NCBI GenBank assembly: GCA_046350795.1
Contig: JAXLZT010000001.1
Location: 80,468-144,467 of the forward strand
From: Minisyncoccota bacterium
GTDB taxonomy: Bacteria > Patescibacteriota > Minisyncoccia > Phycocordibacterales > CALRHW01
Direction of reading: 5' to 3'
DNA length: 64,000 nt
Part shown: positions 36,548-62,185 of the stretch, in pieces
Numbering within the stretch: the first letter of the stretch is position 1
How the letters are laid out: the number at the start of each line of letters is the position of its first letter
Made by a program: the position numbers and the translations under genes
The notes under the pieces: model-generated
What the model saw: only the letters and a program-made list of their open reading frames with translations
Told to the model about the DNA's origin: nothing
Databases searched by the model: none

Positions 36548-36591
36548 CTATAAAATATAATGCGCAGTTATAAATTATTTTTAAATAAAAA

Positions 36592-37332
36592 CTAAAGTTT
36601 TTTCCAATCAGCAATAATCGCTTTTTCGTCACTTGCACTTAGCGCTTTTTTAAATTTAGCTCCTCGCACGCCTTTTACATGCTTTTCACACTCCGCCCAA
36701 GTAGTGTGCGTCTTTACAACACCATTTACCATACTGACATATGAATACGCTTTTGCGCGGGATCTACTTTTTGCTTCACTTTTGTCTTTTTTCTGTGCTA
36801 TTTGCCTTTCATCTAAAGAAACATTTTTTATACCACTTTTATATTCAGAAATTCTCCCAGAAAAAAGTGTTGGTGTATCTCCGGTTGCAAAACTAGACGC
36901 TATCTCATCTACCCTTTCATTACCCACAATACCAATATGACCACCAACGTAGACCCATTTTATTTTTACATCATTATTACGGAAATTTTCTACCAATAAA
37001 TCGAGCTTCTCCCACAAATCTCTATTTACCACATCTTCTTTTTGCAAAGTCTTCCAGTCACGCTTTTTCCAGTTGGAAATCCATTTTGTAATGCCATTTA
37101 TAACATAGCGTGAGTCTGTATATAGTGTGACAGATGCGGAAATTTTCTTACTAGCAAAATTTTCTAGCGCCTTTATAGCACCCACGAGCTCCATTCTGTT
37201 GTTGGTTGTATATGTTTCTCGTCCACCAAGCTCTACCACATCACCACCCGCAACAACAACAGCGCCCCACCCTCCCGGACCAGGATTTCCCTTTGATGCA
37301 CCATCACTAAATACAACGATTTCTTCTGTCAT
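36592..37332 (-). CDS. rnhA: ribonuclease HI with C-terminal hybrid-binding-like domain
   Basis: DGASKGNPGPGGWG, TNNRMEL, DSRYV catalytic motifs; C-terminal YSYVSMVNGVVKTHTTWAECEKHVKGVRGAKFKK resembles RNase H HBD/Cauli_VI domain. Confidence 0.85.
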   Translation of the reverse strand: MTEEIVVFSDGASKGNPGPGGWGAVVVAGGDVVELGGRETYTTNNRMELVGAIKALENFASKKISASVTLYTDSRYVINGITKWISNWKKRDWKTLQKEDVVNRDLWEKLDLLVENFRNNDVKIKWVYVGGHIGIVGNERVDEIASSFATGDTPTLFSGRISEYKSGIKNVSLDERQIAQKKDKSEAKSRSRAKAYSYVSMVNGVVKTHTTWAECEKHVKGVRGAKFKKALSASDEKAIIADWKKL

Positions 37333-37334
37333 TG

Positions 37335-39068
37335 TTAAACAATAATATCAACCACCCTTAAACGCAATTCTGGATAATTTTTAAACATAGATTTTTCAAA
37401 AGTCGCTACCAGATTGATTTTCATACCAGCGACCAAACTTTCCCGATAATGTACTGAAGCAAAAAAACAAATAGCTGGGACCGACTTACCTTGTGGATGC
37501 GCAAAGCGAAGCTCTAAGTGGTTTTTTTCTTTACCAAAAAGTTTGGCTTCTTTTATCTCTACTTGCTCAAAAAGAAAAAGTGGCTTTGGATTGCCCACAC
37601 CAAAAGGAGCCAGCTTTTCTATCATCTTATATGTATTCCAGTTTACGTCCCCGATTGTGAGTTTTTTATCTATGACAATCTTTTCTATCTCCCGCCCCTT
37701 ATCACCGGCCATGATTTTTTCGTATGCAGACAAAATCTCATCTTCTAGTGTGTGAATTTTTTCATGAGACACAGCAAACCCACCAGACATTTTATGTCCA
37801 CCAAAGTGTGTAAAAGAATCTTTCGTCGCTTCCATCAGCTCCACCACACTTACTCTACCATCAGACCGACAAGATCCTTTTATAGTAGATCCGCCTTCAC
37901 GACCCCACAAAAACACAGTTACACCATAGTCATCTTTCAAAGTATTGGCCGCCAATCCGAGTAGTGATGGTCTCCAGTCAGGATTACCTATGACCACAAC
38001 TTTTTTCATTGTGCCGTTTTCTACACGATGTGTCAGAATTTTTTTAATCTCTTTTACCATTGATGCGACAATTCCCTTTCTCTCATCATTTATACTATTT
38101 AAATGCTCACTCAACACCCCGGCCTCGACTTCATCGCGAGTAGAAAGGAGTTTGAAAGCATCTAGTGGTACACCCATACGAGATGCGGCGTTGATACGAG
38201 GAGAAATCATAAAACCAATATCATCTTCAGAAATATGTCGTTGATTTGTTTTTACGGTGCGCAAAAGTTTGAGCAATCCAACACGAGGAGAAATCCGTAA
38301 AACCTTTAAACCATAATACGCAAAGACTCTATTTTCTCCGACAAGTGGCACCATATCTGAAAGCGTTGCAAGCCCCACCATATCCAGAAGCCATTTTTCC
38401 CAGCCATATCGCACATCTTTTATCATGTCCCTCTGACGCATGGTGTAAATAAGGCCCTGAACAAATTTAAAAATCACCCCAGAACCACAAAGAGTCTTTT
38501 CTGGATACTGACAGTCTACTTGTTTTGGATTGAGGATTGCGTATGCGGGAGGTATTTCACTACCAGCCTCATGATGATCTGTAATAATCACATCTAAACC
38601 AAGCTCTGATGCACGCTTTACAGCAACCACATCAGTAATGCCACAATCAATACTAATGACCAATCCCGCCCCACTCTTTGCAAACTCTTCTATAGCATCC
38701 ACGTGTATACCAAAGCCTTCATCTATACGATGTGGAATATAATTTTCAAAATTCTCGTAGCCGATTTTTTTAAAAATATCATGAAGCACTACCGCACCTG
38801 GTATACCATCAGCATCATAGTCACTATAAATAATTATTTTTTGTTTTTCTGATATTGCTTTTAGCACTCGCTCTACTGCGCGCTCCATATCTTTCATTCT
38901 ATATGGATGATGATTGTCTCGATCGTAGTCTGGATTTAAAAATTGCTCTGCTTGTTCACGACTCATTATCCCCCGCGCTCGCAACAAATCTCTGAGTAGC
39001 TCGGGGTAAGTATCCATTTCACCTTCTGTCGTTTGTGGTAAATTTTCCCGAAGCAAATATTGATTCAT
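37335..39068 (-). CDS. recJ: single-stranded-DNA-specific exonuclease RecJ
   Basis: DHH family motifs [23 protein letters not shown]1 domains. Confidence 0.88.
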
Positions 39069-42686: not shown

Positions 42687-44162
42687 TTATTCTATCTCTT
42701 CCCAAGACAGTATCGTATATTGATCAGATGTAAGAGGAAAACTAGGCGGTGGACCATATAGAAGATTGGCATCATATATTATCTGTCTTGTGTCATATCC
42801 GGTCCCATCTGTATAAGCAAAACCATAACGATTGTAGGTAGCCAACATTCCATACAGAGTAATAATGCTTCTTGTATACCAATTATTTCCACCAGATTTA
42901 CAGCTAGTACTGTAATAATACCTTCCCACTCTGCCGTTTTGTGCCACCAAAGCAGCATCTATACGTAGATCGTTCTCGCTCACCATTCCCACGTTTATAT
43001 CTTTCTGTGCAATAAGAGAAAGAACGTCTTGTCCATCATAGTTTGTATATTTTAAATCATTATTTACTGTAATACTCGTGCGTGTAGACGAGTTATCTGG
43101 AAACTTACCCGAAGCAATGGTGAGTCTAGCTGTATTTATAGTGCCCTCTACCCACAAATTGTCCTCAACAAAAATAATTCCGTTGGTTGGAAAGTTCTGA
43201 TTTGATTGCAAAAGAGTCGTACCATTGACACTCCATGTTCCCCATCCAGTTTGATTTTGAGAATTGGAACAACTACCGGGTGGAGACACCAGTGTGTTTA
43301 CTTTGTATAAATCAAACTTATCATTATTTTTTAAAACTAGTTTATATCCAAGGGCACCAGATCCAGCAAAATATCTTCCAGAAGACTGAGCGCTGGATTT
43401 CATCTGGGCTAAATCAGAAGTAAGACCAGTAAAATCAACTGCTGGCACAGGAAACTGTCTGCCGGCCTCAAAAACATCTGCTCTAGTGGGCACGGGACTA
43501 GTAGGCGGTGCCTCATTTGGACGAAAAGCATCATTTATTCCAGAAGACGGTGGTGCGTTAACATGTGTATGTACAGCAAACTCATTATTACCACTATGAT
43601 CTGGGTCGTCGTACTCAGAAAGAGCACTTGAAATAGTGTTATGTGCCAAACCATCAAAACGAATTCCACCGTTTGAATGAATTGGTCCAAATACTTCTGT
43701 ACCTTCTCCAAAACGCATATCTCCGTTTGAAACAAAAGCAAATTTTGCAAAAGAAGCTATAGCCAACTGTGATTCTATAGTACGAGAGGCGCTGGGATCA
43801 GCGAGTACATTACCGGTAGACCTAATCTTTACAATAGTTGTGCCAGTAGGCGGTGGTGTTATGGTTAAAACAAAATTTCCAACTTCCACACCGTCTTTAT
43901 CATAAAAAGAATGAGTATATGGTCCAGGCTGACCAGTACCATCTTGATAGTCTTGTGGTGCATGAGCTAAATGCCACCTATAATAATCTATCCCTGCTTC
44001 TGCTATTTGTATTGCTTGCTCTCTGTATACAGAGCGTTTTGATAATTTTATATTTGAAGCGCCCCACATAATAAGACCACCCATTACAACCACAGCAATA
44101 GAAGAAAAAACGAGCGCTTGGATTATTAGAAAACCACTTTTTTTGTTTCGAGAAGCTATCAT
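42687..44162 (-). CDS. type IV pilus-associated protein with PilX-like N-terminal anchor (putative minor/tip pilin)
   Basis: N-terminal KKSGFLIIQALVFSSIAVVVMGG hydrophobic helix, large Gly/Asn/Thr-rich beta domain; in pilin cluster. Confidence 0.55.
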   Translation of the reverse strand: MIASRNKKSGFLIIQALVFSSIAVVVMGGLIMWGASNIKLSKRSVYREQAIQIAEAGIDYYRWHLAHAPQDYQDGTGQPGPYTHSFYDKDGVEVGNFVLTITPPPTGTTIVKIRSTGNVLADPSASRTIESQLAIASFAKFAFVSNGDMRFGEGTEVFGPIHSNGGIRFDGLAHNTISSALSEYDDPDHSGNNEFAVHTHVNAPPSSGINDAFRPNEAPPTSPVPTRADVFEAGRQFPVPAVDFTGLTSDLAQMKSSAQSSGRYFAGSGALGYKLVLKNNDKFDLYKVNTLVSPPGSCSNSQNQTGWGTWSVNGTTLLQSNQNFPTNGIIFVEDNLWVEGTINTARLTIASGKFPDNSSTRTSITVNNDLKYTNYDGQDVLSLIAQKDINVGMVSENDLRIDAALVAQNGRVGRYYYSTSCKSGGNNWYTRSIITLYGMLATYNRYGFAYTDGTGYDTRQIIYDANLLYGPPPSFPLTSDQYTILSWEEIE

Positions 44163-44776
44163 AAATTATCTTTCAAATTTCTTGGTGTTACTTGAGATGT
44201 AACAGTAGATGGACCAGGTGGACGATTTACATCTTTATCAATTGTAACGTTGATTTTTATAAGGCGCACTGAAAGCGTATCTACCGGCATAGATAAAGGT
44301 GTAGTAGTGCCAGCATAAGATGAATCATAATAACTAAATATTGGTGAGCTTGTAGCGTTTACCACATTTGTTATTAAAGTTTCTATTTTTTCTGTACCAG
44401 TATAACCCACTGGATTACCCGAAGGATCTACCACACCCTTTTTTAAAGATCCATTTTGTAAATAATAACGCACTTTTTCTTTTGACCCATCATTATCTAT
44501 ATCAGTGTAAAAAGTCATAGTACTAGTGGCCGCCTGAGCTATAGGATATGCACCGGCTGCAGACTGAGACATAGATCGTAATTCCCCCACCATAATACGA
44601 AGCACCCTACCACCTTCAAATTGCGCATTGAGACTACCCTGCAAACTATAATTGAGAGAAAAAATATCTTTCTGAAATGTTGTAATGCCCACTATTATCA
44701 GAGTCAAAATACCGAGCACCACTAGGGTTTCTACAATCGAATATCCGCTATTATTTTTTTTAAATCTAAAATACAT
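44159..44776 (-). CDS. type IV pilin-like protein (prepilin-type N-terminal domain)
   Basis: NNSG-YSIVETLVVLGILTLIIVGI class III signal / methylation motif. Confidence 0.7.
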   Translation of the reverse strand: MYFRFKKNNSGYSIVETLVVLGILTLIIVGITTFQKDIFSLNYSLQGSLNAQFEGGRVLRIMVGELRSMSQSAAGAYPIAQAATSTMTFYTDIDNDGSKEKVRYYLQNGSLKKGVVDPSGNPVGYTGTEKIETLITNVVNATSSPIFSYYDSSYAGTTTPLSMPVDTLSVRLIKINVTIDKDVNRPPGPSTVTSQVTPRNLKDNL

Positions 44777-44780
44777 AAAT

Positions 44781-46559
44781 TTATTCTGGTAAAAGGACAA
44801 TGTCATGTTGTTGCCAATTTGCTGAGACCGGTACAGAATCAGTCACATCCTCATATCCAGTTCTAGAAACAGTTACATCATAAGTGCCAGCAGATAAATC
44901 AGAGAAGAAAGCTTGTCCGGGCGGTATACAAGAGGAGGTATAAGTAAAAGAAATCTGCGCGATATTTGGTGTAAGCGTTGTGCTAGCTGTGTTTAAGAAA
45001 ATTTTATATCTTAAATATTCATTGTTATTGTGTGCTGAACTTAAATCTGGTGTAGAAATTGTGTAATAAGATCCAGCGGTACCATCTGGTCCAATAAAAT
45101 TCCATGTAGCATTGTCATTGTTAGTTGCCACTTTGAAACGTACATTGTCAGCACCAGTATCTGCTGGCTGACCTACAGGCTCCCACAATATCTTATTAAA
45201 ATTGCTTGTCGTACCGGTATCAAAAGTTGAGCTTATCAAAAAACCATCAGTAATATATGTACCGAATACATTTCTCAATCTCAACTCACCTGTCGGATTA
45301 TTTGTCTCAATATTTCCATCTGAACTAAAATACTGATCATCATTTACCATATTTGATTGACCACTACCGCCAGACCAATCACTTTGAGTAGAGAAACCTT
45401 GACCAGTAATAAGGGTTTGAGTGAAAGAACCAGATGTAATAGTCACCTCTGCGCCAGATATCGGTAGTTGTGTACTCGCATCCCTCACAGATACGAGCAG
45501 GCTTTTAGTATTTTTAGGAACCACAATCAAGTCCACGTCTTGGGACGAATTTGGAACAAGAGCAAATGGGTTTGGCGGATTCATACCCACCAAATCATAT
45601 GAGCTATCAGTAAGGTCAACAGTGTATGTATCCCAGCGCATATTTGACACAGTTTTTCTCCCAGAAGAATTTGTAACATGATCCACAGAATATTTCCTTA
45701 CATCAGGATTTGTACCAATAGAAGTAGCGCCGGTAAGTGTAAAATCGATATTTGGCACCGTCGCGCAAGATGGAGTAATACTAGAAAAATTGATGGTGCT
45801 CACGCGATCTATAACCAAAGTGACTTGGGTCACTTGTTGCACTGCCACAGTTGCGTGTGGCTTTATTGGATTTGGATTATTTACATCACCTGAAGTATAT
45901 GTCTGATCACTTGTATACCCGGACTTGCTTACTGTTATCTGATAAGACTGCACTCCAGGTGGCACATCCACCACCTGCAACATACCAGATGTATTGGTAA
46001 CGTCATCAATTACAAGATCCGGATTGGGTTGCGTATTTACAATATGCACATCTGCATCAGATACGGGCTGACCATTTGAATCCAATACCTGAATAAAAAG
46101 TGCGCCATTTGTAGAAGCTGTCTCTAAATTTTTTGGAGCAACCCTAGAAGTAATACTCATTCCAGAAAAATTTTTACATGTATCACAAGTCACCCCTATT
46201 TCCACAAGACGATAGTCAGCTGGAGAGAGATCATTTGGTGATTGACCAATAAGCCCATCAAAAGGATCGTCTATATTTCTTATGGTTGTGGTGACCAAAA
46301 AAGAAACACCGTCTCGCACCAAAGTCTGCTCATGTGGCAAAACACCAGACGGCACAGAGTTGACTATACCTACATCTACATATTCAAGATTGCGAATAAT
46401 TTCAAACTGTTCGTTTATCAAATTCGCAGCTGTTATTTTTACATGCGAAGCGCCTACTACACCATATATAGAAGTAAATCCGCCATAAACACTGACAGAT
46501 ACAAGTAAAAACAGAGCGACTCCCACAAGCACTTCTACTAGAGTAAGACCTTTATTCAT
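44781..46559 (-). CDS. large (592 aa) type IV pilin-like protein with C-terminal beta-sandwich domains
   Basis: MNKG-LTLVEVLVGVALFLLV prepilin N-terminus followed by long Thr/Ser/Asn/Val-rich domains. Confidence 0.7.
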   Translation of the reverse strand: MNKGLTLVEVLVGVALFLLVSVSVYGGFTSIYGVVGASHVKITAANLINEQFEIIRNLEYVDVGIVNSVPSGVLPHEQTLVRDGVSFLVTTTIRNIDDPFDGLIGQSPNDLSPADYRLVEIGVTCDTCKNFSGMSITSRVAPKNLETASTNGALFIQVLDSNGQPVSDADVHIVNTQPNPDLVIDDVTNTSGMLQVVDVPPGVQSYQITVSKSGYTSDQTYTSGDVNNPNPIKPHATVAVQQVTQVTLVIDRVSTINFSSITPSCATVPNIDFTLTGATSIGTNPDVRKYSVDHVTNSSGRKTVSNMRWDTYTVDLTDSSYDLVGMNPPNPFALVPNSSQDVDLIVVPKNTKSLLVSVRDASTQLPISGAEVTITSGSFTQTLITGQGFSTQSDWSGGSGQSNMVNDDQYFSSDGNIETNNPTGELRLRNVFGTYITDGFLISSTFDTGTTSNFNKILWEPVGQPADTGADNVRFKVATNNDNATWNFIGPDGTAGSYYTISTPDLSSAHNNNEYLRYKIFLNTASTTLTPNIAQISFTYTSSCIPPGQAFFSDLSAGTYDVTVSRTGYEDVTDSVPVSANWQQHDIVLLPE

Positions 46560-46567
46560 GGTTTAAA

Positions 46568-47788
46568 TTAAATTGCGTCGGCAAGAGAATACATCGGTCC
46601 GAGCATAGATATCGCAAAAAATCCAACACCGATACCAATAACGACCATCAAAAATGGTTCTATAATGGTCGACATGTCTTTTGTTTTTTGATCAACCTCT
46701 TCTTCATAAAATTGAGCTACGTTTGCAAGCATTTCAGATAATTTTCCTGTCTCCTCTCCAATGCTCACCATCTCCCCCACAAACACCGGGTAAAGTTTTT
46801 CGTGTTTTAAGAAAATATTTGAAACCGGATCTCCTTTTTCTATATTTATCTCAGCCTCTTTTAACACAGCTTTATAATAAGAATTTTGAATAACATCTTG
46901 TGTAATACGTACAGCCACAAGCACATCCACACCAGAAGAAAGTAGAGAAGAAAAAGTACGTGCAGTACGAGCGGAGTTGAGATCTTTTACAATTCCAGAA
47001 ATCACGGGTACGTGAAGCACAAAAGTATCTAAAGCCCTCTTGCCTCTTTTTGTCTTTATAGAAAAATAAAAAACCAAACCAACAGTAATAAGGATTAATA
47101 GATTTATAATAATATGATTTTTCAAAAAGTCTGACAGCCAAATAACCATTTTTGTAGAAAAAGGTAAGGAAACATTCAAATCTTTAAAGGTTGATGTAAG
47201 TGTCGGCACCAAATATATAAGCATCAAAACACCTATAGTAATCATAATAGACAAAATAATTGCTGGATATATGAGCGCTCCACGAATTTTTTTTGTAAGC
47301 TGATAAGCTTTTTCAAGCTGAGCAGACACCACCTTAAGAGACTGAGTGACACTACCGCTTTCCTCTCCAGATTTAACCATTGATACAAAGAGTGAAGAAA
47401 AAACATCCAAATGCTTTGCCATTGCCTCACTTAGAGCACTTCCCTTGCCGATATCAACATTGAGTTCACCTATTACTTTTTTAAATTTCTTATTTTTTGT
47501 CTGTCGCTCCATTACAGAAAGCGCACGCGCCAAAGGCAATCCAGCTTCTATCATTGTGCCGAGGTTTTTTGCAAACATTATCTTGTCTATTGTCTTAACC
47601 CTACCCAGTAGATTGCCAAAATGAATATTTTTAACAAAACCCACTCCATCTTTTTGCTCCTCAGCAAAAGTAACGGTGTCCCCGTCTAGACGAATCTGCT
47701 GATATAGAGCAGATTTACTTTCTGCTTCTTTTACACCACTATATTTTTCACCCGTCTTTTTTACCGCTTTGAAGTTAAATTTTGGCAT
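46568..47788 (-). CDS. pilC: type IV pilus assembly platform protein PilC (GspF family)
   Basis: two T2SS-F repeats, three TM segments. Confidence 0.88.
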   Translation of the reverse strand: MPKFNFKAVKKTGEKYSGVKEAESKSALYQQIRLDGDTVTFAEEQKDGVGFVKNIHFGNLLGRVKTIDKIMFAKNLGTMIEAGLPLARALSVMERQTKNKKFKKVIGELNVDIGKGSALSEAMAKHLDVFSSLFVSMVKSGEESGSVTQSLKVVSAQLEKAYQLTKKIRGALIYPAIILSIMITIGVLMLIYLVPTLTSTFKDLNVSLPFSTKMVIWLSDFLKNHIIINLLILITVGLVFYFSIKTKRGKRALDTFVLHVPVISGIVKDLNSARTARTFSSLLSSGVDVLVAVRITQDVIQNSYYKAVLKEAEINIEKGDPVSNIFLKHEKLYPVFVGEMVSIGEETGKLSEMLANVAQFYEEEVDQKTKDMSTIIEPFLMVVIGIGVGFFAISMLGPMYSLADAI

Positions 47789-47815
47789 ATAGTTTTACGA
47801 TATTTATTAGAAAAA

Positions 47816-49570
47816 TTATTCTGATACCACACGCAATATTTCTTCTATTGTGGTCTGACCCTGAACAGCTTTGAAAATGCCGTCTTCTATCATAGACAAC
47901 ATACCTTCGGCTTTTGCTTGTTTCTCTATTTCTTTATCAGTCTTACCCTGCATCACAAGCTCTTTTATAGCTGGAGACACCTTGAGCACTTCGTATATAC
48001 CCACTCGGCCACTAAAAGCTTGCTCAGGGTCTACACCGGCTTTTGGTCTATAAAAAGGTATTTTGTCCCAAGACACTTTTCCTTCTACCACCTTTTCTTC
48101 TTTCAAAAACTTTAAGACACGATCAAGGTCAACGGTTTTTTTCAAAGTTTCTATCTCGGCGTCAGTCAAAAAGTATTTTTCTTTTTTATCAGTAAGTTTA
48201 CGAACGAGACGCTGTGCAATAACTACGTTTAATGTAGAGACGATTAAAAACGGCTCGACTTTCATATCTATGAGACGAGGTATCGCACCTGCAGCTGAGT
48301 TGGTGTGCAGTGTGGAAAGCACGAGATGACCTGTAAGTGATGCGTTGACCGCAAGAGAAGCTGTCTCACCATCACGGATCTCTCCCACCATGATAATGTC
48401 TGGGTCCTGACGCACTAGTGTGCGTAGACCGTTACTAAAGGTCAATCCTATCTCAGACTTTACTTGCGTTTGGTTGATACGATTCATTTGATACTCTACC
48501 GGATCCTCTATAGTAGAAATATTTACGTCAGGCGTATTTAAAATATCAAGCATTGTATATAGAGAAGTGGTCTTTCCAGATCCTGTCGGTCCAGTAGTGA
48601 GTATGAGTCCAGTCGTCTGATTCATTGCCTTGTGTATTTGCTCTAGAGCCTCACCGTGATAACCGAGTACTTCGAGAGTAAATCCAGAAGCTGATTCGCG
48701 AAGCAAACGCATTACAGTCTTTTCTCCGTAGTAAATAGGCAAAGTAGAAACACGGAAAGAAACTTTTTCTCCGTTCATGTCTATTTTAAAGCGACCGTCT
48801 TGTGGTAAACGCTTTTCATCTAGCTTTAGATTTGCGAGCACTTTTATGCGTGCGGTGATACTAGTAGAAATATTTTTAGGTAATGTCATAGCGTCATGAA
48901 GCATACCGTCGATACGGTATCTGACTATCACCTGATTTTCGAGGGGCTCGATGTGAATATCAGAAGCGTTTTGAATAATTGCATGTTTTAAAAGAGTATC
49001 GACTATGCGCACCACAGGCATATCCTCAGCAAGCTTCTTGAGGTCGCTCTCTGACACATCTTCGTTTTCACCTCCATCGGCTACAGCTTTTATGGACACG
49101 GATTCTTTTTGAATCAAATCTCCAAATTCTGCCTTAAGACTTTTTTGATATTGCAAAAGCACACTCTTAATAGATTCGCTATCAGTCAAACGAGGCAATA
49201 TTTTCAATCCAACTTTCTTTTTTACAAAATCAATAGCGGTCAGATTGGCAATATCAAGCATTGCCACCTCGAGTCCCCCAGGTACTTTTTTAAAACCAAC
49301 TATATTGTGATTGCGAGCAATAGGTTCTGGAATAAGAGCGAGCACATCAAAATCTATCTTTATACCCTTTAAATCAACAAAAGGAATACCTAAAATATTA
49401 GCCTGAATCTTGCGCAATTCATCCTCACCTATCTTACCCTTGCTTACAAGTACTTCTCCCACATCAACATCCTTTTCCTCTGCCTCTTTTTCTGCAGAAG
49501 CAAAATCGGCTTTTGATACAAGACCAGAGTCCAAGATGAAATCTTTAAATTGTTTTTCTTCAATGTGCAT
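47816..49570 (-). CDS. pilB: type IV pilus assembly ATPase PilB (GspE family)
   Basis: N-terminal GSPII_E_N domain, Walker A TGPTGSGKTTSLY, Asp box, His box. Confidence 0.92.
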   Translation of the reverse strand: MHIEEKQFKDFILDSGLVSKADFASAEKEAEEKDVDVGEVLVSKGKIGEDELRKIQANILGIPFVDLKGIKIDFDVLALIPEPIARNHNIVGFKKVPGGLEVAMLDIANLTAIDFVKKKVGLKILPRLTDSESIKSVLLQYQKSLKAEFGDLIQKESVSIKAVADGGENEDVSESDLKKLAEDMPVVRIVDTLLKHAIIQNASDIHIEPLENQVIVRYRIDGMLHDAMTLPKNISTSITARIKVLANLKLDEKRLPQDGRFKIDMNGEKVSFRVSTLPIYYGEKTVMRLLRESASGFTLEVLGYHGEALEQIHKAMNQTTGLILTTGPTGSGKTTSLYTMLDILNTPDVNISTIEDPVEYQMNRINQTQVKSEIGLTFSNGLRTLVRQDPDIIMVGEIRDGETASLAVNASLTGHLVLSTLHTNSAAGAIPRLIDMKVEPFLIVSTLNVVIAQRLVRKLTDKKEKYFLTDAEIETLKKTVDLDRVLKFLKEEKVVEGKVSWDKIPFYRPKAGVDPEQAFSGRVGIYEVLKVSPAIKELVMQGKTDKEIEKQAKAEGMLSMIEDGIFKAVQGQTTIEEILRVVSE

Positions 49571-49656
49571 AATAGTAGTGCAACAATGAAATTATTATAT
49601 CAGAAAACAAAACACACATCTGTGGAGATGTGTGTTTTGTTTAAAAAAACGCAAAA

Positions 49657-50463
49657 TTAATTTTTAACACAATACAACAAAGCAATGTATGGATTTAACA
49701 TGTTCATTGCCTCAGCGTTTCCAGTAGCACCTATACTAGGTGAGGACGTATTTGGATTATCCCAAGGAATGTCTACGTTTTGTTGACAAGTGCCCCCAGA
49801 ACAATAATTTTTTCCTGTATTTCCAAAAGCGTTTACAAGATAATTTCCATTATTATTTATGGTGTGATTATGAGATGCCATCTGTTCTAAAGTCTGTACA
49901 ATAGCCTCCTGACCACCCTTTTGTCCTAAAGTATGATTTGTACTAGCAGTGGATCCACTTCCTGTATTAGAGTTTCCTACTCCCAGTATTACTCTACCTG
50001 CACCATCAGTAAAAGGACTCCATCCAGATGGGCATGAAGATAGGTTGAAAGACATGACCGCACCAGAAGGAGCATTTATCACAACACCGCCACTATTTGT
50101 CGGCCACTGTGTAATACAAGCATCTCCTATACAAAAACCTGTGCGACTTTTTGAGTATCCCACCACATCAAGCATTTGAGTTGGCGCATCTGTACCAATA
50201 CCAACCTTGCCAGCATAAGCAGAAAAACCGAGATCATCTTGCAACACAGCGGCGCCCACAGTAAGTCCTCCTTGTTTTATCTGACCGACTGTACCTAAAT
50301 TTATAGGCGGTCTACATCCAGGCGTAAAGTTGTTAGCACAATCTGGCGGTGGAGATGAAGGCGCACTCCAACCAAAAACAGTTACAGAACCAAAGTAAAA
50401 TACGCAGGTTAAAAGAACAATCTTAATATTTTTTATAATTTCTTTTTTATTATTCATATTCAT
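49657..50463 (-). CDS. secreted phage tail-collar/MdpB-like domain protein, paralog 1
   Basis: signal peptide, conserved CPSGWSPFTDGAGRVILGVG...LGQKGGQEAIVQ...H-x-H...NPYIALLYCVKN resembling tail-collar / microcystin-dependent protein domains. Confidence 0.65.
   Translation of the reverse strand: MNMNNKKEIIKNIKIVLLTCVFYFGSVTVFGWSAPSSPPPDCANNFTPGCRPPINLGTVGQIKQGGLTVGAAVLQDDLGFSAYAGKVGIGTDAPTQMLDVVGYSKSRTGFCIGDACITQWPTNSGGVVINAPSGAVMSFNLSSCPSGWSPFTDGAGRVILGVGNSNTGSGSTASTNHTLGQKGGQEAIVQTLEQMASHNHTINNNGNYLVNAFGNTGKNYCSGGTCQQNVDIPWDNPNTSSPSIGATGNAEAMNMLNPYIALLYCVKN
49895..50051. repeat. 157-bp block 100% identical to 50711-50867 and 51530-51686 (within three paralogous genes)
   Basis: direct comparison of sequence text. 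Confidence 0.9.
50132..50184. repeat. 53-bp block identical to 50939-50991 and 51770-51822
   Basis: direct comparison; encodes QMLDVVGYSKSRTGFC on minus strand. Confidence 0.85.
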
Positions 50464-50469
50464 AATCTT

Positions 50470-51267
50470 CTAAGGTAAATCTTTAGAACAATAAAGCAAT
50501 GTGACATATGGATCCGTAATATTCATTGGACTGCCACCCAAATTGTTATTAACGGTTGGGGTAAAAAAATCTCCAGTAGTAATAATAGAATTTGAACTAA
50601 CACAAGATTGATTGGTGCAAAAATTTTTTTGTTGTTTACCAAGATAGTTCACCCAAATAGGATAGTTGCCGGTCGCGGCATGATTGTGCGGAGGAAGTTG
50701 AGACGCTTCTTGTACAATAGCCTCCTGACCACCCTTTTGTCCTAAAGTATGATTTGTACTAGCAGTGGATCCACTTCCTGTATTAGAGTTTCCTACTCCC
50801 AGTATTACTCTACCTGCACCATCAGTAAAAGGACTCCATCCAGATGGGCATGAAGATAGGTTGAAAGCCGCAACAATAGCGCCAGAAGGTATACTTGATC
50901 CACCAGCATTCCAGTTTTGTATACAACTATCATTGATGCAAAAACCTGTGCGACTTTTTGAGTATCCCACCACATCAAGCATTTGAGTTGGTTCAATAGT
51001 GCCTATACCGGCCTTTCCTTTCAAGACCAAAAGGCTTGGTTGGCTTGCATCCAAACCATAACCAACAGTAAGGCCTCCCTGTTTTATTTGACCGTCACCC
51101 CCCAAGTGTAATGGCGCATCACATCCAGGATAATTTGTAGGGCAATTGGTTGGACTGCCTGGTGGAGGGCTCCATGCTCCATAAACAGCATTTACACCAA
51201 CACTCAAAAAAAATGCAATTACTACTATCTTAAAATTTTGTAATATTTTTTCTTTTAGAAGATTCAT
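50470..51267 (-). CDS. secreted phage tail-collar/MdpB-like domain protein, paralog 2
   Basis: same conserved core as 49657-50463, divergent N- and C-terminal flanks. Confidence 0.65.
   Translation of the reverse strand: MNLLKEKILQNFKIVVIAFFLSVGVNAVYGAWSPPPGSPTNCPTNYPGCDAPLHLGGDGQIKQGGLTVGYGLDASQPSLLVLKGKAGIGTIEPTQMLDVVGYSKSRTGFCINDSCIQNWNAGGSSIPSGAIVAAFNLSSCPSGWSPFTDGAGRVILGVGNSNTGSGSTASTNHTLGQKGGQEAIVQEASQLPPHNHAATGNYPIWVNYLGKQQKNFCTNQSCVSSNSIITTGDFFTPTVNNNLGGSPMNITDPYVTLLYCSKDLP
50711..50867. repeat. 157-bp identical block, copy 2
   Basis: direct comparison. Confidence 0.9.
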
Positions 51268-51279
51268 GGCGTATTTAAA

Positions 51280-52107
51280 TTAATTTTTGGAACAATAAAG
51301 TAATGTGACATATGGATCCATAATATTCATCGGTAACGGACTATCTGAACCTATTGGTTGCAACCACACCGTACCTTGATTGTTATATGCATTTTTAAAA
51401 TTTCCACCACTGCAATTATTTGATCCCTGTTGACAGCTATTAATACTAGGAACACCAATAGGCCTCAACCAACCAGAAGACCCGCCACCATTAAACGAAT
51501 GGCTATGAACTGCCACCTGTGATTCGTCTTGTACAATAGCCTCCTGACCACCCTTTTGTCCTAAAGTATGATTTGTACTAGCAGTGGATCCACTTCCTGT
51601 ATTAGAGTTTCCTACTCCCAGTATTACTCTACCTGCACCATCAGTAAAAGGACTCCATCCAGATGGGCATGAAGATAGGTTGAAAGGTAAAACGGTACCA
51701 GAAGGAAGTTCTACCACATTATCACCGCCAGTCGCCCATGAAAAAGACGTGATACAGCTATCGTTGATGCAAAAACCTGTGCGACTTTTTGAGTATCCCA
51801 CCACATCAAGCATTTGAGTTGGTTCGGTCGTACCTATACCAGCTTTTCCGCCAGCAACAGCAAAGCCAAGAGAATCTGTAGACAAACTTTCACCAAGTAT
51901 TAAACCGCCGTCTTTTATCTGCCCGTAAGATCCAATATGAACTGGTTTATCACAACCAGTAGCGCCAGAAGGGCAATTGTTTTCAATGTTTGGAATACCA
52001 GGTGGACCCACCCAAGCCAAAAGAGTGCTCACCCCTGTGCCAAGCATAAAGGTTAACAAAGCTATTTTCATCCAATCAATAATTTCTTTTTTTATAAAGC
52101 TTTTCAT
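51280..52107 (-). CDS. secreted phage tail-collar/MdpB-like domain protein, paralog 3
   Basis: same conserved core; C-terminus DPYVTLLYCSKN. Confidence 0.65.
   Translation of the reverse strand: MKSFIKKEIIDWMKIALLTFMLGTGVSTLLAWVGPPGIPNIENNCPSGATGCDKPVHIGSYGQIKDGGLILGESLSTDSLGFAVAGGKAGIGTTEPTQMLDVVGYSKSRTGFCINDSCITSFSWATGGDNVVELPSGTVLPFNLSSCPSGWSPFTDGAGRVILGVGNSNTGSGSTASTNHTLGQKGGQEAIVQDESQVAVHSHSFNGGGSSGWLRPIGVPSINSCQQGSNNCSGGNFKNAYNNQGTVWLQPIGSDSPLPMNIMDPYVTLLYCSKN
51530..51686. repeat. 157-bp identical block, copy 3
   Basis: direct comparison. Confidence 0.9.
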
Positions 52108-52116
52108 TTTTTAAAA

Positions 52117-52452
52117 TTATTTTGCTGTCATTGAGTTGATAAGTTTGTTCTTTTTCTCTACGGACAGGCCCGCTTGGCTTGATTTTGCTGTACTAGACTT
52201 TATAAGTGCCTGTCTTTCTTTTTCAGTAAGATTTGATGGGCCTTTTGCTGTCATTGAATTGATAAGTTTTTGTTCTGGAGTCATCTGAGAATCTGGAGAA
52301 GTGCCCGTCTTTTCTTTAAACATAAAAATTATAGCAACAAAAACAATTAGGCACGCTATAAAAATAACAACCCATCTAGTTTTATTGTGTTGAGAGTCGG
52401 CAACTTGATTTATGTTATTTAGATTGTTATCCATGTCATTTAAATTATACAT
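52117..52452 (-). CDS. small single-TM protein with three (L/I)INSMTAKGPS-type repeats
   Basis: TM WVVIFIACLIVFVAIIFMF; repeats seen in translation; ATG overlaps stop of upstream 762-aa gene (translational coupling). Confidence 0.55.
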   Translation of the reverse strand: MYNLNDMDNNLNNINQVADSQHNKTRWVVIFIACLIVFVAIIFMFKEKTGTSPDSQMTPEQKLINSMTAKGPSNLTEKERQALIKSSTAKSSQAGLSVEKKNKLINSMTAK

Positions 52453-54740
52453 TAAAATTCATTTGTATCTGGTTGCGCTACTACAACTATAGAGTTATCA
52501 CATTTTTTAACAGTAGAAACACCATTTACATTTGTAGCTGTAACATAAAGCTCTTTTATTCCAGTTGTAGCATATGTTTTTACAAAGTTTGTATTAGAAC
52601 CCGTAGATGTTGGATTAACATTTGTTCCCTCCCAAGAATATGTTAGTGGATTTAGTGGATCAACAGTCGCTGGTGTAGCCACCCAAGTAACAGGATTGTT
52701 TACCAAATATGGCGGACCGCCCGCTGCTTTACATGAGGCCAAATCGAAAGATGGTACAAGCACTGGAATAGTAACTGTTTTTTCTGGAATAGAAGATTGG
52801 CCCTTAACAATAACTTCGTACATACCAGGGTCAGTATCTGGAGATACATTTATTGAAAGAGTCTTTTGACAATCTGGTTTGCAACTAGCATTTGCAGGCA
52901 GAGACGCTGTGAGTGGTGAGGTAGCACCACCCGGCGCATTTACCTGAACTGATAAATCAACTGTTTCTGTCTTTCCAGAAGTAAGGGTTAAATTGATATC
53001 GGAAGTTACATTGTGAGTTTCTCCCGGAACAGTCCAGCTAGTAAAACCACTCGGTAAAGCAGTAATAGAATAATCAAAAGGAGCTGGAACGCCATAGGTT
53101 ACCTTATGATAACCATTCACAGGATCATTAAACCGGATCCATCCAAGCGCTTCTCCACCCCACATTGATCCCATTATACGAGCAGTCTTTCTGTTGTAAG
53201 TAAGTCCAGCATCTCCGTGTTCATGACTATAGCCGGTTGGGAAAGTATTATCAGAAAGTTTTATCCAACCATCAAATCCTGGAGTGCTATCTCCACTCAA
53301 GACTCTAGCCCAACCAGCAATAGAACCAACATTCTGATCTATGTTTGTTAGACTAGCAACGTCACTTGAATTATTTGGTCCTGTTAGACCACCAAAATTT
53401 ATCCAACCCACAGAATCACTCCAAGCATGACCAGAAAGTGTTCCAGATCCACCCATAACACCGCCATTATTTACACTTACTCCAAAACCACCGGATGTAG
53501 CACAAGGTGAATCGGCCACACCATCCTGATCTTCATCAAAACAACTATTCATCTGTATCCAGCCAATGTTGTCTGACCAAGCATATCCAAAAATATTACC
53601 AATTTCATTTTCTACACACTGGCCATTTACAGGCTCAGTATTGCCCTGACACTTTGCTTCACATTTTGGCGCACTACCAGATGGAGAACTACATGAAGCT
53701 ACTGTTGTATAAGGAGTATCAGCTGTCAGACCGGTGCCATCTCCAGCACAAAGGGTAGAATTTGCAGGAAGAGTACCTGTGCATGAATAGGTGGGAGCTG
53801 GAACACAAGAATCTGAATTACCCGGACCAGGAGAATAAACGTATCCTATGTCACACTCTCTTTCACATTTTGGTGCGCTTCCTGTTGGAACGCTACAAGA
53901 CTGGACCAAATCATACTGTATATTGCCACTAAACCCAGCGTTGTCTCCCGAACAAAGTACTGAATTTGATGCAACATTTCCATTACATGACCCACTCAAA
54001 CCACCTCCACCGGATTGAGTAATAGTGCCTGATTGTCTCCACTCACTCCACAATCCCTGACAGCTATCCCAATTACGCACTGCTATTTTTATAGGTTCTC
54101 CTTGATATTTTGTTGGGGTCTGAAGTTGAGCTACACCACTATATCCAGCAGGAATTACTGGTGGATAATCTACCCATATCGGCACACTTACATCTTCTGG
54201 CTCCTGATTATTTAAAATTACAATAACCTGATGCTCCTCTCCTGTTCCGTTGTTTGCAGCTGGCGGAATAGTAATATTTAGATCGTTTAAACCGGGATTT
54301 ACATACGAACCAGAAAAGCTACCGGATACCCATGTAGGTGGTACTGGAAAATCATTTGTACAAGGACCCTCTTTTCCGCCTCCACCATTGCCTCCATCAC
54401 CATCTGACATTGTTGGAGTGTAATCTTGAATACCTCCCACACCATCATTATCAATAGTAGTTATCTGGCAAGTACCGACGTTTTCAGCAGTACAAGCTGG
54501 TGGATTTCCAATACCGTTCACACCCACACAAAGACCAGACTGACACTGACTATTACTAACACATATACCACCATTTGGGGTGTTATTGGTACAAGAGAGT
54601 ACTGTTGGGTTAGCACCTTTTCCCTCTACACCAGGTGAATGAGCAACAAAAAGCATTCCTCCAAAAAGCACAGCCACAGCTAAAGCAAAAAACAAAAGTG
54701 ATCTATTACGAATAATTCCTTCTTTTATATTTTTCACCAT
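52452..54740 (-). CDS. large Cys-rich secreted surface protein with AWS-x-NIGWI repeats and C-terminal PKD-like domain
   Basis: signal anchor; CSxPxGSAPKCE Cys repeats; four G(Y/W)AWSxNIGWI-like repeats; C-terminal PYLVNNPVTW...YSWEGTN...TTGIKELYVTATNVNG PKD-like; ends ...PDTNEF. Confidence 0.65.
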   Translation of the reverse strand: MVKNIKEGIIRNRSLLFFALAVAVLFGGMLFVAHSPGVEGKGANPTVLSCTNNTPNGGICVSNSQCQSGLCVGVNGIGNPPACTAENVGTCQITTIDNDGVGGIQDYTPTMSDGDGGNGGGGKEGPCTNDFPVPPTWVSGSFSGSYVNPGLNDLNITIPPAANNGTGEEHQVIVILNNQEPEDVSVPIWVDYPPVIPAGYSGVAQLQTPTKYQGEPIKIAVRNWDSCQGLWSEWRQSGTITQSGGGGLSGSCNGNVASNSVLCSGDNAGFSGNIQYDLVQSCSVPTGSAPKCERECDIGYVYSPGPGNSDSCVPAPTYSCTGTLPANSTLCAGDGTGLTADTPYTTVASCSSPSGSAPKCEAKCQGNTEPVNGQCVENEIGNIFGYAWSDNIGWIQMNSCFDEDQDGVADSPCATSGGFGVSVNNGGVMGGSGTLSGHAWSDSVGWINFGGLTGPNNSSDVASLTNIDQNVGSIAGWARVLSGDSTPGFDGWIKLSDNTFPTGYSHEHGDAGLTYNRKTARIMGSMWGGEALGWIRFNDPVNGYHKVTYGVPAPFDYSITALPSGFTSWTVPGETHNVTSDINLTLTSGKTETVDLSVQVNAPGGATSPLTASLPANASCKPDCQKTLSINVSPDTDPGMYEVIVKGQSSIPEKTVTIPVLVPSFDLASCKAAGGPPYLVNNPVTWVATPATVDPLNPLTYSWEGTNVNPTSTGSNTNFVKTYATTGIKELYVTATNVNGVSTVKKCDNSIVVVAQPDTNEF

Positions 54741-61309: not shown

Positions 61310-62185
61310 TTATTGAATTCTCACAGCCCAACCGTTTCTTGTTTCTCCACAGTCGTAATCATTTCCTGTGGTTGTACAGTCTGTAGGTGGTACTCCTAAA
61401 ATACTTCCGATACTTGTGCCACCATTTACTACAGTCAAACTTACATATGGAATTGAAGTATACATTTCTCGATCAGCTGCACTATCTCCTATCTGATCCA
61501 TTCTCACCATATTTACCATCCACTTGGCACTAGATCCACCAGGCAAAGCTGGACCTGTACCACCAGTTACAGTACCGGCCCATGAAGTTGCCCACTTTCC
61601 ACCGGTCACACCAATATTATGACCAGGTTCTTGACCGTATGCTTCTGAATATCCAAAGGCAAAAGATACGGTAGCGCCCACACCAGTAGTTTGATTTGAT
61701 CCGGTTCCATATGGCTTCATATTAAGACCTGACTGTGCCTGAGGAAGATCTCTCCACTCCGCAACACCAGATGTACCAATAGCTGTAAGCACTTGCCCAT
61801 TTGAAATAAGACCATCAGAAGCTGTTGCTCCACCACGAATTCTTACTTGACCGCCCACATCAAGCTTGATGTTGTCATTTCCGGTATCATTTAAATAATT
61901 ATTTATAGCGACTCTACCGTTTACTACAAAAAGTCCAGGTGCTCCGGGAGCTGGAGTACCAGAAGATACTATCAACCCTCCTACCTTTGACTGAGCAACA
62001 CCACTTATGTTTATAGGTGGATTACAGCCAGGAATACTCATATCTGTACATACTGGAGGATCACCTGCTGGTGGTGGGGTCCATGCACCATGCACCACTC
62101 CTATGCCCATTACCAAAACAAGAGCAAGTATCAAAACCCTCACACTTTGTAATATTTCTTTTTTAAATGAATTCATTTTTTTCAT
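61310..62185 (-). CDS. secreted protein sharing the N-terminal AW(S/T)PPP...C...GC.PP...Q.K.GGL module with the tail-collar paralogs but with a different Gly/Thr-rich C-terminal domain
   Basis: VHGAWTPPPAGDPPVCTDMSIPGCNPPINISGVAQSKVGGLIV aligns with N-termini of 49657/50470/51280 proteins. Confidence 0.55.
   Translation of the reverse strand: MKKMNSFKKEILQSVRVLILALVLVMGIGVVHGAWTPPPAGDPPVCTDMSIPGCNPPINISGVAQSKVGGLIVSSGTPAPGAPGLFVVNGRVAINNYLNDTGNDNIKLDVGGQVRIRGGATASDGLISNGQVLTAIGTSGVAEWRDLPQAQSGLNMKPYGTGSNQTTGVGATVSFAFGYSEAYGQEPGHNIGVTGGKWATSWAGTVTGGTGPALPGGSSAKWMVNMVRMDQIGDSAADREMYTSIPYVSLTVVNGGTSIGSILGVPPTDCTTTGNDYDCGETRNGWAVRIQ

What the first reader, a model, noticed from the sequence alone, without database searches (positions are those of the whole stretch)
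49895..51822. Perfectly identical 157-bp and 53-bp DNA blocks inside three diverged tandem paralogs
The three tail-collar-like genes share 100% identical nucleotide blocks (157 bp and 53 bp), while the flanking parts of the genes have diverged substantially, including synonymous positions. This pattern suggests concerted evolution or gene conversion, or a cassette mechanism that holds a constant scaffold while the termini vary, as in antigenic or receptor-variation systems.
Basis: seen in the sequence. Interest (0 to 1): 0.65.

Follow-up and report, generated by a model that had tools for sequence, protein, structure and literature searches.

The report
Gene-conversion islands in three fibre genes
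Three neighbouring, anciently duplicated surface-fibre genes of an ultrasmall (CPR/Paceibacteria) bacterium share two DNA stretches that are letter-for-letter identical because the copies keep overwriting each other there (gene conversion); this is a clean example of a well-known process, not a new mechanism.

Summary
Three tandem minus-strand genes (A 49657-50463, B 50470-51267, C 51280-52107) share a 157-bp and a 53-bp block at 100% identity. The rest of the genes is 43-61% identical, and synonymous sites there are saturated. The proteins carry a signal peptide and a phage-tail-fibre-like (gp10/gp12 "collar") C-terminal domain. The genes lie directly upstream of pilB/pilC/pilin genes in a Candidatus Paceibacterota MAG. 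The decisive test used an A-type orthologue from a related species (L028, also next to pilB). Outside the blocks it is closer to A than B or C are. Inside the blocks it is only 81-87% identical, with synonymous sites as free as in pilB. So the duplication predates the species split, the block DNA is not constrained in itself, and the within-genome identity is post-speciation homogenisation: concerted evolution by gene conversion confined to the conserved core. No RNA element, recombinase or reverse transcriptase was found nearby. Other assemblies of the same or a sister strain show module chimeras whose junctions lie inside the blocks. These cannot be told apart from short-read assembly mis-walks, so a working cassette-shuffling system is not shown. 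Ordinary kind, tidy example, unusual organism.

The parts
51280..52107 (-). Gene C (275 aa): first of three tandem paralogs. Signal peptide or anchor, IGT..PTQMLDV motif, collar-like C-terminal domain with an HxH motif.
   Evidence: ORF list. Identical to NCBI protein U0522_00795. Alignments.
50470..51267 (-). Gene B (265 aa): second paralog, 12 nt downstream of C.
   Evidence: Identical to U0522_00790.
49657..50463 (-). Gene A (268 aa; NCBI starts it at the second ATG, 266 aa): third paralog, 6 nt downstream of B and 86 nt upstream of pilB.
   Evidence: The orthologue in L028 is also adjacent to pilB.
49895..50051 (-). 157-bp identical block, copy in A (aa 138-190: FNLSSCPSGWSPFTDGAGRVILGVGNSNTGSGSTASTNHTLGQKGGQEAIVQ). 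It is the conserved core of the collar-like domain and ends 8 codons before the HxH motif.
   Evidence: The family's nearly invariant residues cluster here. It is the highest-pLDDT part of the model.
50711..50867 (-). 157-bp identical block, copy in B (identity with C extends to 50708).
51530..51686 (-). 157-bp identical block, copy in C.
50132..50184 (-). 53-bp identical block, copy in A (aa 94-111: PTQMLDVVGYSKSRTGFC).
50939..50991 (-). 53-bp identical block, copy in B (identity with C covers 50933-50994, 62 bp).
51770..51822 (-). 53-bp identical block, copy in C.
50052..50131 (-). A 'mid' module (80 nt) between the two blocks. It is 51-59% identical to the B and C mid modules, with indels.
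50868..50938 (-). B 'mid' module (71 nt). It is absent from the sister-strain assembly L005, where the C mid module takes its place.
51687..51769 (-). C 'mid' module (83 nt). It is present twice (genes 1 and 2) in sister-strain assembly L005.
47816..49570 (-). PilB-type assembly ATPase immediately downstream (context only).
   Evidence: Pfam T2SSE 1.9e-124 and MshEN. The adjacency is kept in L003, L005 and L028.
46568..47788 (-). PilC-type platform protein (context only).
   Evidence: Pfam T2SSF 1.2e-53.
44781..46559 (-). 592-aa pilin-like protein with a weak N-terminal methylation motif (below Pfam's cut-off) and CarboxypepD_reg domains (context only).
52117..54740 (-). Upstream partners in the same gene string: a 762-aa Cys-rich secreted protein (52452-54740) and a 111-aa repeat protein (52117-52452). 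The big-protein, small-protein, three-paralog, pilB order is also seen in distant species L003.

Best explanation
A, B and C are old tandem paralogs. They encode secreted, probably trimeric, tail-fibre-like proteins linked to the type IV pilus gene string of a CPR bacterium. Homologous recombination between the direct repeats (non-reciprocal gene conversion, presumably RecA-dependent) keeps copying two short segments from one copy to another. These segments encode the most conserved structural core: the IGT..PTQMLDV motif and the first half of the collar-like domain. Because the core is under strong protein-level constraint, its DNA stayed similar enough to recombine. Each conversion restores perfect identity, which makes the next conversion easier. 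The N-terminal stalk, the 71-83-nt 'mid' module and the C-terminal segment after the HxH motif (inferred to be the ligand-binding head) stay different. Either they are too diverged (about 50% identity, with indels) to support strand exchange, or conversions that erase their differences are selected against. The result is islands of 100% identity with sharp, shared edges inside genes that are otherwise saturated. SHOWN: the blocks, the saturated flanks, the paralog-versus-orthologue incongruence, and the absence of DNA-level constraint between species. INFERRED: the recombination pathway, the role of selection in fixing the edges, and the adhesin or receptor-binding role.
For: 1) The blocks are exact and the flanks are saturated at synonymous sites.
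2) Orthologue test. L028 carries an A-type gene next to pilB (pilB 91% aa, 83% nt identity, so a different species).
 - In the flanks, A-to-orthologue nt distance is 0.31 and A-to-B distance is 0.50 (mid module 78% vs 56-59% identity; C-terminal part 69% vs 43-50%). The triplication therefore predates the species split.
 - In the blocks, A = B = C, while the orthologue differs at 37 of 210 nt. Its same-codon fraction is 25/48 = 52% in the 157-bp block, like pilB at 95/155.
 - If A and B had diverged at least as much as A and its orthologue, P(0 differences) is about 2e-18.
3) There is no alternative DNA- or RNA-level reason for the identity: no Rfam hit at E <= 1, RNA folding z = +0.53, and promoter-like sites at the shuffle expectation.
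4) No recombinase or reverse transcriptase was found among the larger ORFs scanned between 33 and 64 kb.
5) The same behaviour occurs in other lineages of the family, but at other positions. L003 paralogs 2 and 3 share 343 nt at 99.4%, and all three share 141 nt at 95.7%, at the N-terminus. L010 has a 171-nt, 94% tract. That pattern fits opportunistic conversion rather than a dedicated device.
6) Two MAG assemblies of strains about 0.5% apart agree on gene order and on all N-terminal to C-terminal pairings. The array is therefore stable and is not scrambling at high frequency.
Against: Everything rests on assemblies and no reads were available. Bubble-popping could have produced the perfect identity from near-identity. 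Only one orthologue (A-type, a partial gene on a 1.7x-coverage contig) was available, so the reciprocal half of the concerted-evolution test is missing: it is not known whether the other species' own paralogs share its own block variant. Four or more independent conversion tracts with edges coinciding within 6 nt need an extra assumption, either selection or a mismatch barrier. Conversion alone does not predict such sharp, shared borders.
Confidence: 0.75

Rival explanations
1. Working cassette or module-shuffling system. The two identical blocks serve as recombination anchors through which the N-terminal, mid and C-terminal modules of the three genes are reassorted (up to 27 combinations, plus deletions) within populations. 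This would vary the binding specificity of a pilus-associated fibre, in the manner of bab chimeras or tail-fibre motif swapping.
For: Other assemblies carry module chimeras with every junction inside a block.
- L005 (sister-strain MAG): gene 2 = B-Nterm / C-mid / B-Cterm.
- L001 (same strain as L005): B-Nterm / C-mid / A-Cterm followed by pilB. This is what a single unequal crossover in the 157-bp block of the L005 arrangement would give.
- L002 (100% identical pieces of the window strain): C-Nterm / A-mid / B-Cterm.
- In the L003 lineage, a second assembly (L029) lacks the body of gene 1, with the junction in the shared N-terminal tract.
- C-mid appears in both assemblies of the L005 strain. 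This weakly favours a real B-mid to C-mid conversion (inference).
Against: A short-read de Bruijn assembler cannot resolve 53-bp and 157-bp exact repeats. From my own knowledge, Logan contigs use k = 31, and metagenome assemblers collapse parallel paths of similar length. The B and C mid modules lie between two shared nodes and differ by only 12 nt in length. Every chimera is therefore also a legal mis-walk through the same graph. Five assemblies of the L003 lineage simply break at the repeat edges, which shows assemblers struggle here. The two long MAG contigs agree on gene order and on N-terminal to C-terminal pairings. No site-specific recombinase, reverse transcriptase or silent-cassette store is present. 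All repeats are direct, so simple crossovers would delete genes rather than shuffle them.
Confidence: 0.15
2. Assembly artefact. The blocks are similar but not identical in the real genome, and consensus collapse or bubble popping wrote the same sequence into all three copies.
For: The 157-bp block is longer than the k-mers short-read assemblers normally use (own knowledge). Assemblies of this and the related lineage demonstrably disagree or break at such repeats.
Against: The same block sequence is found in four assemblies from at least three samples and two strains. Collapse needs high similarity in the first place, so the contrast with the roughly 50% identical flanks and the 81% identical orthologue remains, and so does the conclusion of homogenisation. 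In L003 the assembler kept 2 mismatches in a 343-nt tract, so near-identical tracts are not always flattened.
Confidence: 0.07
3. Recent triplication followed by import of diverged flanks. The three genes are young copies, which is why the blocks are identical. Their variable modules were later replaced by alleles from other strains or species, through transformation and homologous recombination anchored in the conserved blocks.
For: The locus lies beside DNA-uptake and recombination genes: type IV pilus genes, ComEC and RecJ. Mosaic tail-fibre genes are known to evolve this way (PMC3157838).
Against: It needs about seven separate imports, all ending in the same two blocks. The A-type flanks sit in the same position (next to pilB) in a related species, with divergence comparable to pilB. 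That fits vertical inheritance of an old paralog.
Confidence: 0.05
4. Sequence-level functional constraint. The blocks contain an RNA, a regulatory site or an antisense gene that forbids synonymous change.
For: An antisense frame is open through the blocks in all three genes (49949-50179, 50765-50986, 51584-51817) and also in L028.
Against: The orthologue's block differs at 37 of 210 nt, with synonymous sites as free as in pilB. There is no Rfam hit and no unusual folding. The antisense frame pairs wobble with wobble positions, so it stays open and conserved as a by-product of the sense frame, and it is interrupted in L003.
Confidence: 0.02

Closest known systems
Concerted evolution of bacterial paralogs by gene conversion (e.g. 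tufA/tufB, rRNA operons; PMC6053082; Santoyo & Romero 2005, cited there)
   Same: Paralogs within one genome are more alike than orthologues between species, at synonymous sites too. This is the criterion used in PMC6053082, and the two blocks meet it.
   Different: In the classic cases homogenisation covers the whole gene and keeps the copies functionally uniform. Here it covers only 210 of about 810 nt, split into two islands, and the rest of each gene stays at about 50% identity.
Helicobacter pylori babA/babB/babC adhesin paralogs (PMC4552749)
   Same: Three adhesin-type paralogs have homologous regions flanking a paralog-specific variable region. Intragenomic gene conversion through the homologous regions makes chimeras.
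   Different: The bab genes are at dispersed loci, the homologous regions are terminal and long, and the chimeras were verified in isolates. Here the genes are tandem, the conserved parts are short and internal, and the chimeras are seen only in metagenome assemblies.
T-even phage tail-fibre adhesins (gp37/gp38): conserved motifs flanking hypervariable segments (PMC3157838; Tetart et al. 1998, cited there)
   Same: A fibre-tip protein has a conserved structural core (the glycine-rich motifs) separating hypervariable specificity segments, and recombination in the conserved motifs swaps the segments. The proteins here also have a phage-fibre-like tip domain.
   Different: In the phages the exchange is between genomes during co-infection. 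Here it is between tandem copies in one cellular chromosome. No homology to gp38 was shown, and only weak similarity to the gp10/gp12 C-terminal domains.
Silent-cassette antigenic variation (Neisseria pilE/pilS) - own knowledge
   Same: Short conserved stretches flank variable mini-cassettes and act as recombination anchors in a pilus-related gene family.
   Different: That system has one expressed gene, promoterless truncated donor copies and a dedicated initiation element. Here all three copies are complete genes in one co-directional string, and no such element was found.

Membership tests
Concerted evolution / interlocus gene conversion | Paralogs within a genome are more similar than orthologues between species over the tract | tested here: met
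   Blocks: A = B = C at 100%, versus 81% (157-bp block) and 87% (53-bp block) to the A-type orthologue in L028.
Concerted evolution / interlocus gene conversion | The duplication is older than the speciation, so the identity is not due to a young duplicate | tested here: met
   In the flanks A is closer to the orthologue (nt distance 0.31) than to B (0.50), and the A-type gene is next to pilB in both species. Only one orthologue was available.
Concerted evolution / interlocus gene conversion | The identity extends to synonymous sites and is not explained by selection on the sequence itself | tested here: met
   65 of 65 codons are the same in the blocks, against 50% in the flanks. The orthologue uses the same codon at only 52% of identical residues. 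No RNA family and no unusual fold.
Concerted evolution / interlocus gene conversion | Reciprocal homogenisation in the sister species (its paralogs share its own variant) | not testable with these tools
   Only a 1.2-kb contig of the sister species is on record. The metagenome and genome scans found no closer material.
Programmed cassette / antigenic-variation system | Recombinant variants coexist within a population and are verified at read level | tested here: inconclusive
   Chimeras occur in L001, L002, L005 and L029 with junctions in the identical tracts. All of them are also explicable as assembly-graph mis-walks, and no reads were available.
Programmed cassette / antigenic-variation system | Dedicated machinery or a donor store (invertase, reverse transcriptase, silent truncated cassettes) | tested here: not met
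   All three copies are full-length ORFs. The larger ORFs scanned between 33 and 64 kb gave no recombinase or RT domain. There is no further block copy in the window. The rest of the 562-kb genome was not seen.
Diversity-generating retroelement target | Template/variable repeat pair differing at adenines, plus a nearby reverse transcriptase | tested here: not met
   The repeats are 100% identical, not A-mutated, and no RT was found among the scanned neighbours.
Phage tail collar / gp10-gp12 C-terminal domain proteins (Pfam PF07484, PF21939) | Significant match to the family profile | tested here: inconclusive
   Gp10_C gives E = 2e-3 and 19 bits for A and B, below the 27-bit cut-off, and nothing for C. 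11 of 90 family members hit Gp10_C and 2 hit Collar. The profile against PDB gives C24 (6ov6) at E = 0.012 and T4 gp12 at E = 0.04.
Phage tail collar / gp10-gp12 C-terminal domain proteins (Pfam PF07484, PF21939) | Fold similarity to solved fibre-tip domains | tested here: inconclusive
Type IV pilins | Class III signal peptide / N-terminal methylation motif | tested here: not met
   A, B and C give no N_methyl hit, whereas the neighbours 44781-46559 and 44159-44806 do, though below Pfam's 21.2-bit cut-off. The N-termini look like ordinary signal peptides or anchors (model helix 3-25).

The most novel reading that the evidence does not exclude
The two identity islands are maintained as recombination anchors. 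The bacterium would use them to reassort the stalk, mid and head modules of three pilus-linked fibre proteins (up to 27 combinations, plus array contraction), so the chimeras in L001, L002 and L005 would be real population variants. This would be a combinatorial host-recognition switch in an episymbiotic CPR bacterium that works without any dedicated recombinase. A related speculation: the three genes encode one heterotrimeric fibre whose shared collar core must stay identical for assembly, so that avoiding 'paralog interference' (PMC6053082) selects for the homogenisation.
Probability: 0.15. Interest if true: 0.7.

Novelty: new member of a known kind. Interest (0 to 1): 0.33.

Why it matters
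The example is unusually clean: two short, sharply bounded conversion islands sit inside otherwise saturated tandem paralogs. It shows how a conserved structural core can be homogenised while the putative specificity-determining parts stay distinct. It also flags a conserved gene string in Paceibacteria (large secreted protein, small repeat protein, three fibre-tip paralogs, pilB/pilC/pilins) as a candidate host-attachment module in organisms whose host recognition is largely unknown. Practically, it warns that module linkages in such arrays cannot be trusted in short-read MAGs. Different assemblies of the same strain give different chimeric proteins, and these now sit in public protein databases as if they were distinct genes (P0002, P0004, P0016).

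Tried and rejected
- RNA element: no Rfam match at E <= 1 over 49000-53000, and folding of the 157-nt block gives z = +0.53. Rejected.
- Internal promoter or terminator: counts are at the shuffle expectation. Rejected.
- Antisense ORFs through the blocks: the frame is open in L028 but broken in L003. It is a wobble-on-wobble frame that follows from the sense frame. Rejected as the cause.
- DGR, shufflon or invertase: no A-specific mismatches, no inverted arrangement, and no RT or recombinase among the scanned neighbours.
- 'Three alleles mis-assembled in tandem': rejected, because the inter-gene junctions recur in independent assemblies.
- Close relatives: the genome-contig scan returned only relatives at 25-39% identity, plus two short-fragment matches. 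The metagenome-contig scan returned nothing close. The reciprocal concerted-evolution test could therefore not be done.
- Sample provenance: searching papers for the run and assembly accessions found nothing.
- A GENECONV-type test on A, B and C alone is uninformative, because the tracts are monomorphic among the three. The orthologue comparison was used instead.
Full report
OBSERVATION. The region holds three co-directional minus-strand ORFs: C (51280-52107, 275 aa), B (50470-51267, 265 aa) and A (49657-50463, 268 aa). They are separated by 12 and 6 nt. An exact-match scan finds a 157-bp block at 49895-50051 / 50711-50867 / 51530-51686 and a 53-bp block at 50132-50184 / 50939-50991 / 51770-51822. 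B and C share 160 and 62 bp. Allowing 3 mismatches, there are no further copies in the window, and shuffles expect none.

In a codon alignment the remaining parts are 44-59% identical. Outside the blocks only 109 of 218 codons for identical residues are the same codon. Inside the blocks all 65 are the same in every pair (P about 3e-20 per pair).

WHAT THE GENES ARE. The window comes from a Candidatus Paceibacterota (CPR) MAG. The proteins are annotated as hypothetical U0522_00785, 00790 and 00795 on a 562-kb contig. Each protein has the following parts:
- an N-terminal hydrophobic helix, probably a signal peptide or anchor;
- a W-x-x-P..PP stretch;
- a 'GKxGIGTxxPTQMLDVVG' motif, which contains the 53-bp block;
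- a short variable 'mid' segment;
- a C-terminal domain whose first half is the 157-bp block, followed by an invariant HxH motif, a roughly 65-75-residue variable segment and a conserved last strand (PY..LLYC.K).

Similarity to phage fibre-tip domains is consistent but weak:
- Pfam Gp10_C gives E = 2e-3 for A and B, below the cut-off.
- Of 90 family members, 11 hit Gp10_C, 2 hit Collar and 42 carry collagen triple-helix repeats, which implies trimeric fibres.
- The profile against PDB gives C24 (6ov6) at E = 0.012 and T4 gp12 at E = 0.04.
- The AF2 model has pLDDT 66 and is confident only at 131-165 and 258-268.

Downstream lie pilB (T2SSE, 1.9e-124), pilC (T2SSF) and two proteins with weak N-terminal methylation-motif (pilin-type) hits. 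Upstream lie a 111-aa repeat protein and a 762-aa Cys-rich protein. ComEC, RecJ and RNase H are nearby. The string large protein, small repeat protein, three paralogs, pilB is conserved in a distant species (L003, 38% aa). I infer secreted, trimeric, pilus-associated surface fibres, plausibly for attachment. This inference was not tested.

THE DECISIVE TEST. P0003 (HMP32210.1) is encoded on L028, directly upstream of a pilB that is 91% aa and 83% nt identical to the window's. It is therefore an A-type orthologue from a different species.
- Outside the blocks it is closer to A than B or C are. The mid module is 78% nt identical to A, against 56-59% between paralogs. The C-terminal part is 69%, against 43-50%. 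Flank distance is 0.31, against 0.50. The A/B/C triplication therefore predates the species split.
- Inside the blocks the topology flips. A = B = C, while the orthologue is 81% (157-bp block) and 87% (53-bp block) identical. It has 4 amino-acid changes, and in the 157-bp block only 25 of 48 identical residues use the same codon. That is the same freedom as in pilB (95 of 155).
- If A and B had diverged at least as much as A and its orthologue, the chance of zero differences in 210 nt is about 2e-18.

This is the defining signature of concerted evolution (definition in PMC6053082). It also excludes any intrinsic DNA- or RNA-level constraint on the block sequence. In agreement with that, Rfam finds nothing and the block RNA folds no better than shuffles (z = +0.53). 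Promoter-like sites are at expectation. The antisense ORFs are a by-product of a wobble-on-wobble frame and are interrupted in L003.

MECHANISM. The best explanation is recurrent non-reciprocal homologous recombination (gene conversion) among the tandem direct repeats, confined to the two segments that encode the conserved core. Protein-level constraint kept these segments similar enough to recombine, and each conversion resets them to identity. The flanks, at about 50% identity with indels, can no longer pair, or conversions that erase their differences are removed by selection. The two islands are separated by a diverged 71-83-nt module, so at least four tracts are needed. Their edges coincide within 6 nt in all pairs. 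That argues for selection or a mismatch barrier in addition to conversion itself; this step is inferred.

No dedicated machinery is present among the scanned neighbours. The repeats are not A-mutated, so this is not a DGR, and they are not inverted, so it is not a shufflon. The same family shows homogenised tracts in other lineages, but at other positions. In L003, paralogs 2 and 3 share 343 nt at 99.4%, and all three share 141 nt at 95.7%, at the N-terminus; its third copy even has an unrelated C-terminal domain. L010 has a 171-nt tract at 94%. This fits opportunistic conversion between neighbours rather than a device built around one scaffold.

THE CHIMERAS. Other assemblies contain module chimeras, written here as N-terminal | mid | C-terminal.
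- L005 (GCA_964417815.1) is a sister strain about 0.5% diverged. It has C|C|C, B|C|B, A|A|A: the B mid module is replaced by the C mid module, with both junctions inside the B-C identical tracts.
- L001 (Logan DRR198509) carries the same SNPs as L005. It has B|C|A followed by pilB, exactly the product of one crossover in the 157-bp block of the L005 arrangement.
- L002 (Logan SRR26835457) consists of pieces 100% identical to the window. It has C|A|B followed by the start of A.
- In the L003 lineage, L029 lacks the body of gene 1, with the junction in the shared 141-nt tract. Five other assemblies stop at the repeat edges.

These are what real recombinants would look like. They are equally what an assembler produces when it walks a graph containing 53-bp and 157-bp exact repeats. 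From my own knowledge, Logan uses k = 31, and metagenome assemblers merge parallel paths of similar length; the B and C mid modules lie between two shared nodes and differ by 12 nt. The two long MAG contigs agree on gene order and on every N-terminal to C-terminal pairing, which argues against high-frequency scrambling. C-mid occurs in both assemblies of the L005 strain, which mildly favours a real B-to-C mid conversion there (inference). I therefore treat active cassette shuffling as unproven (about 0.15).

COMPARISON WITH KNOWN SYSTEMS.
- The blocks meet the criteria for concerted evolution by gene conversion. The difference from the classic cases (tuf, rRNA; PMC6053082) is that only two short internal islands are homogenised.
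- In architecture and likely consequence it most resembles the H. pylori bab adhesin paralogs, which have homologous regions around a paralog-specific variable region and make chimeras by intragenomic conversion (PMC4552749).
- It also resembles the T-even tail-fibre adhesins, in which conserved core motifs separate hypervariable specificity segments and mediate swaps (PMC3157838).
- It does not meet the defining features of silent-cassette antigenic variation, DGRs or shufflons.

VERDICT. The kind is already known (interlocus gene conversion / partial concerted evolution in tandem surface-protein paralogs). The instance is tidy and sits in a poorly understood CPR pilus-linked gene string. Interest is modest at 0.33. 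The reading that would raise it, true combinatorial module shuffling or a heterotrimeric fibre that requires an identical collar, needs read-level or long-read data that these tools do not provide.

Noticed in passing
window 61310-62185 (-): A fourth, distant member of the same protein family (291 aa, about 30% identical to A, B and C) lies 9 kb away. It has no Pfam hit and carries none of the identical blocks.
   Followed up: partly
window 52117-52452 (-), repeats at 52120-52146 / 52183-52209 / 52243-52269: The 111-aa gene just upstream of the array contains three 27-nt repeats encoding a reiterated peptide (..KLINSMTAK..). The syntenic 98-aa gene in L003 (8884-9180) has an analogous reiterated peptide although its sequence differs.
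   Followed up: no
window 52452-54740 (-); internal repeat 53649-53696 / 53853-53900: A 762-aa Cys-rich secreted protein with no Pfam domain and an internal Cys-motif repeat. Homologues sit next to family members in several CPR loci (L003, L006, L008, L020), so it may be a conserved partner of the fibre-like genes.
   Followed up: partly
window 49949-50179, 50765-50986, 51584-51817 (+): Antisense ORFs of 73-77 aa start at a GTG inside the 157-bp block and run through the mid module and the 53-bp block. The frame is also open in the orthologue L028 but interrupted in L003. It is the wobble-on-wobble frame and is probably spurious.
   Followed up: yes
L029 (GCA_005795885.1) versus L003 (GCA_005795865.1) 9185-10132; L031-L035: In a distant species, two assemblies of the same strain differ by presence or absence of the whole first paralog, with the junction inside a shared 141-nt tract. 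Five further assemblies end at the repeat edges. The same real-or-artefact ambiguity applies as in the window lineage.
   Followed up: partly
L028 (ERZ794932 NODE_29378, 1255 bp): The protein HMP32210.1, labelled 'Saprospiraceae bacterium' in nr, sits on a 1.2-kb, 1.7x-coverage contig beside a pilB that is 91% identical to the Paceibacterota one. It is very likely a mis-binned CPR contig.
   Followed up: partly
public protein records P0002 (268 aa), P0004 (271 aa), P0016 (269 aa): Three database proteins are exact mosaics of the window's A, B and C modules. They inflate the apparent diversity of this family and may be assembly artefacts.
   Followed up: yes
window 35048-39068 and 44159-49570: The type IV pilus genes (pilB, pilC, two proteins with weak pilin-type N-terminal methylation motifs, one of 592 aa with CarboxypepD_reg domains) lie close to ComEC, RecJ and RNase H. 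The combination suggests a DNA-uptake neighbourhood.
   Followed up: no
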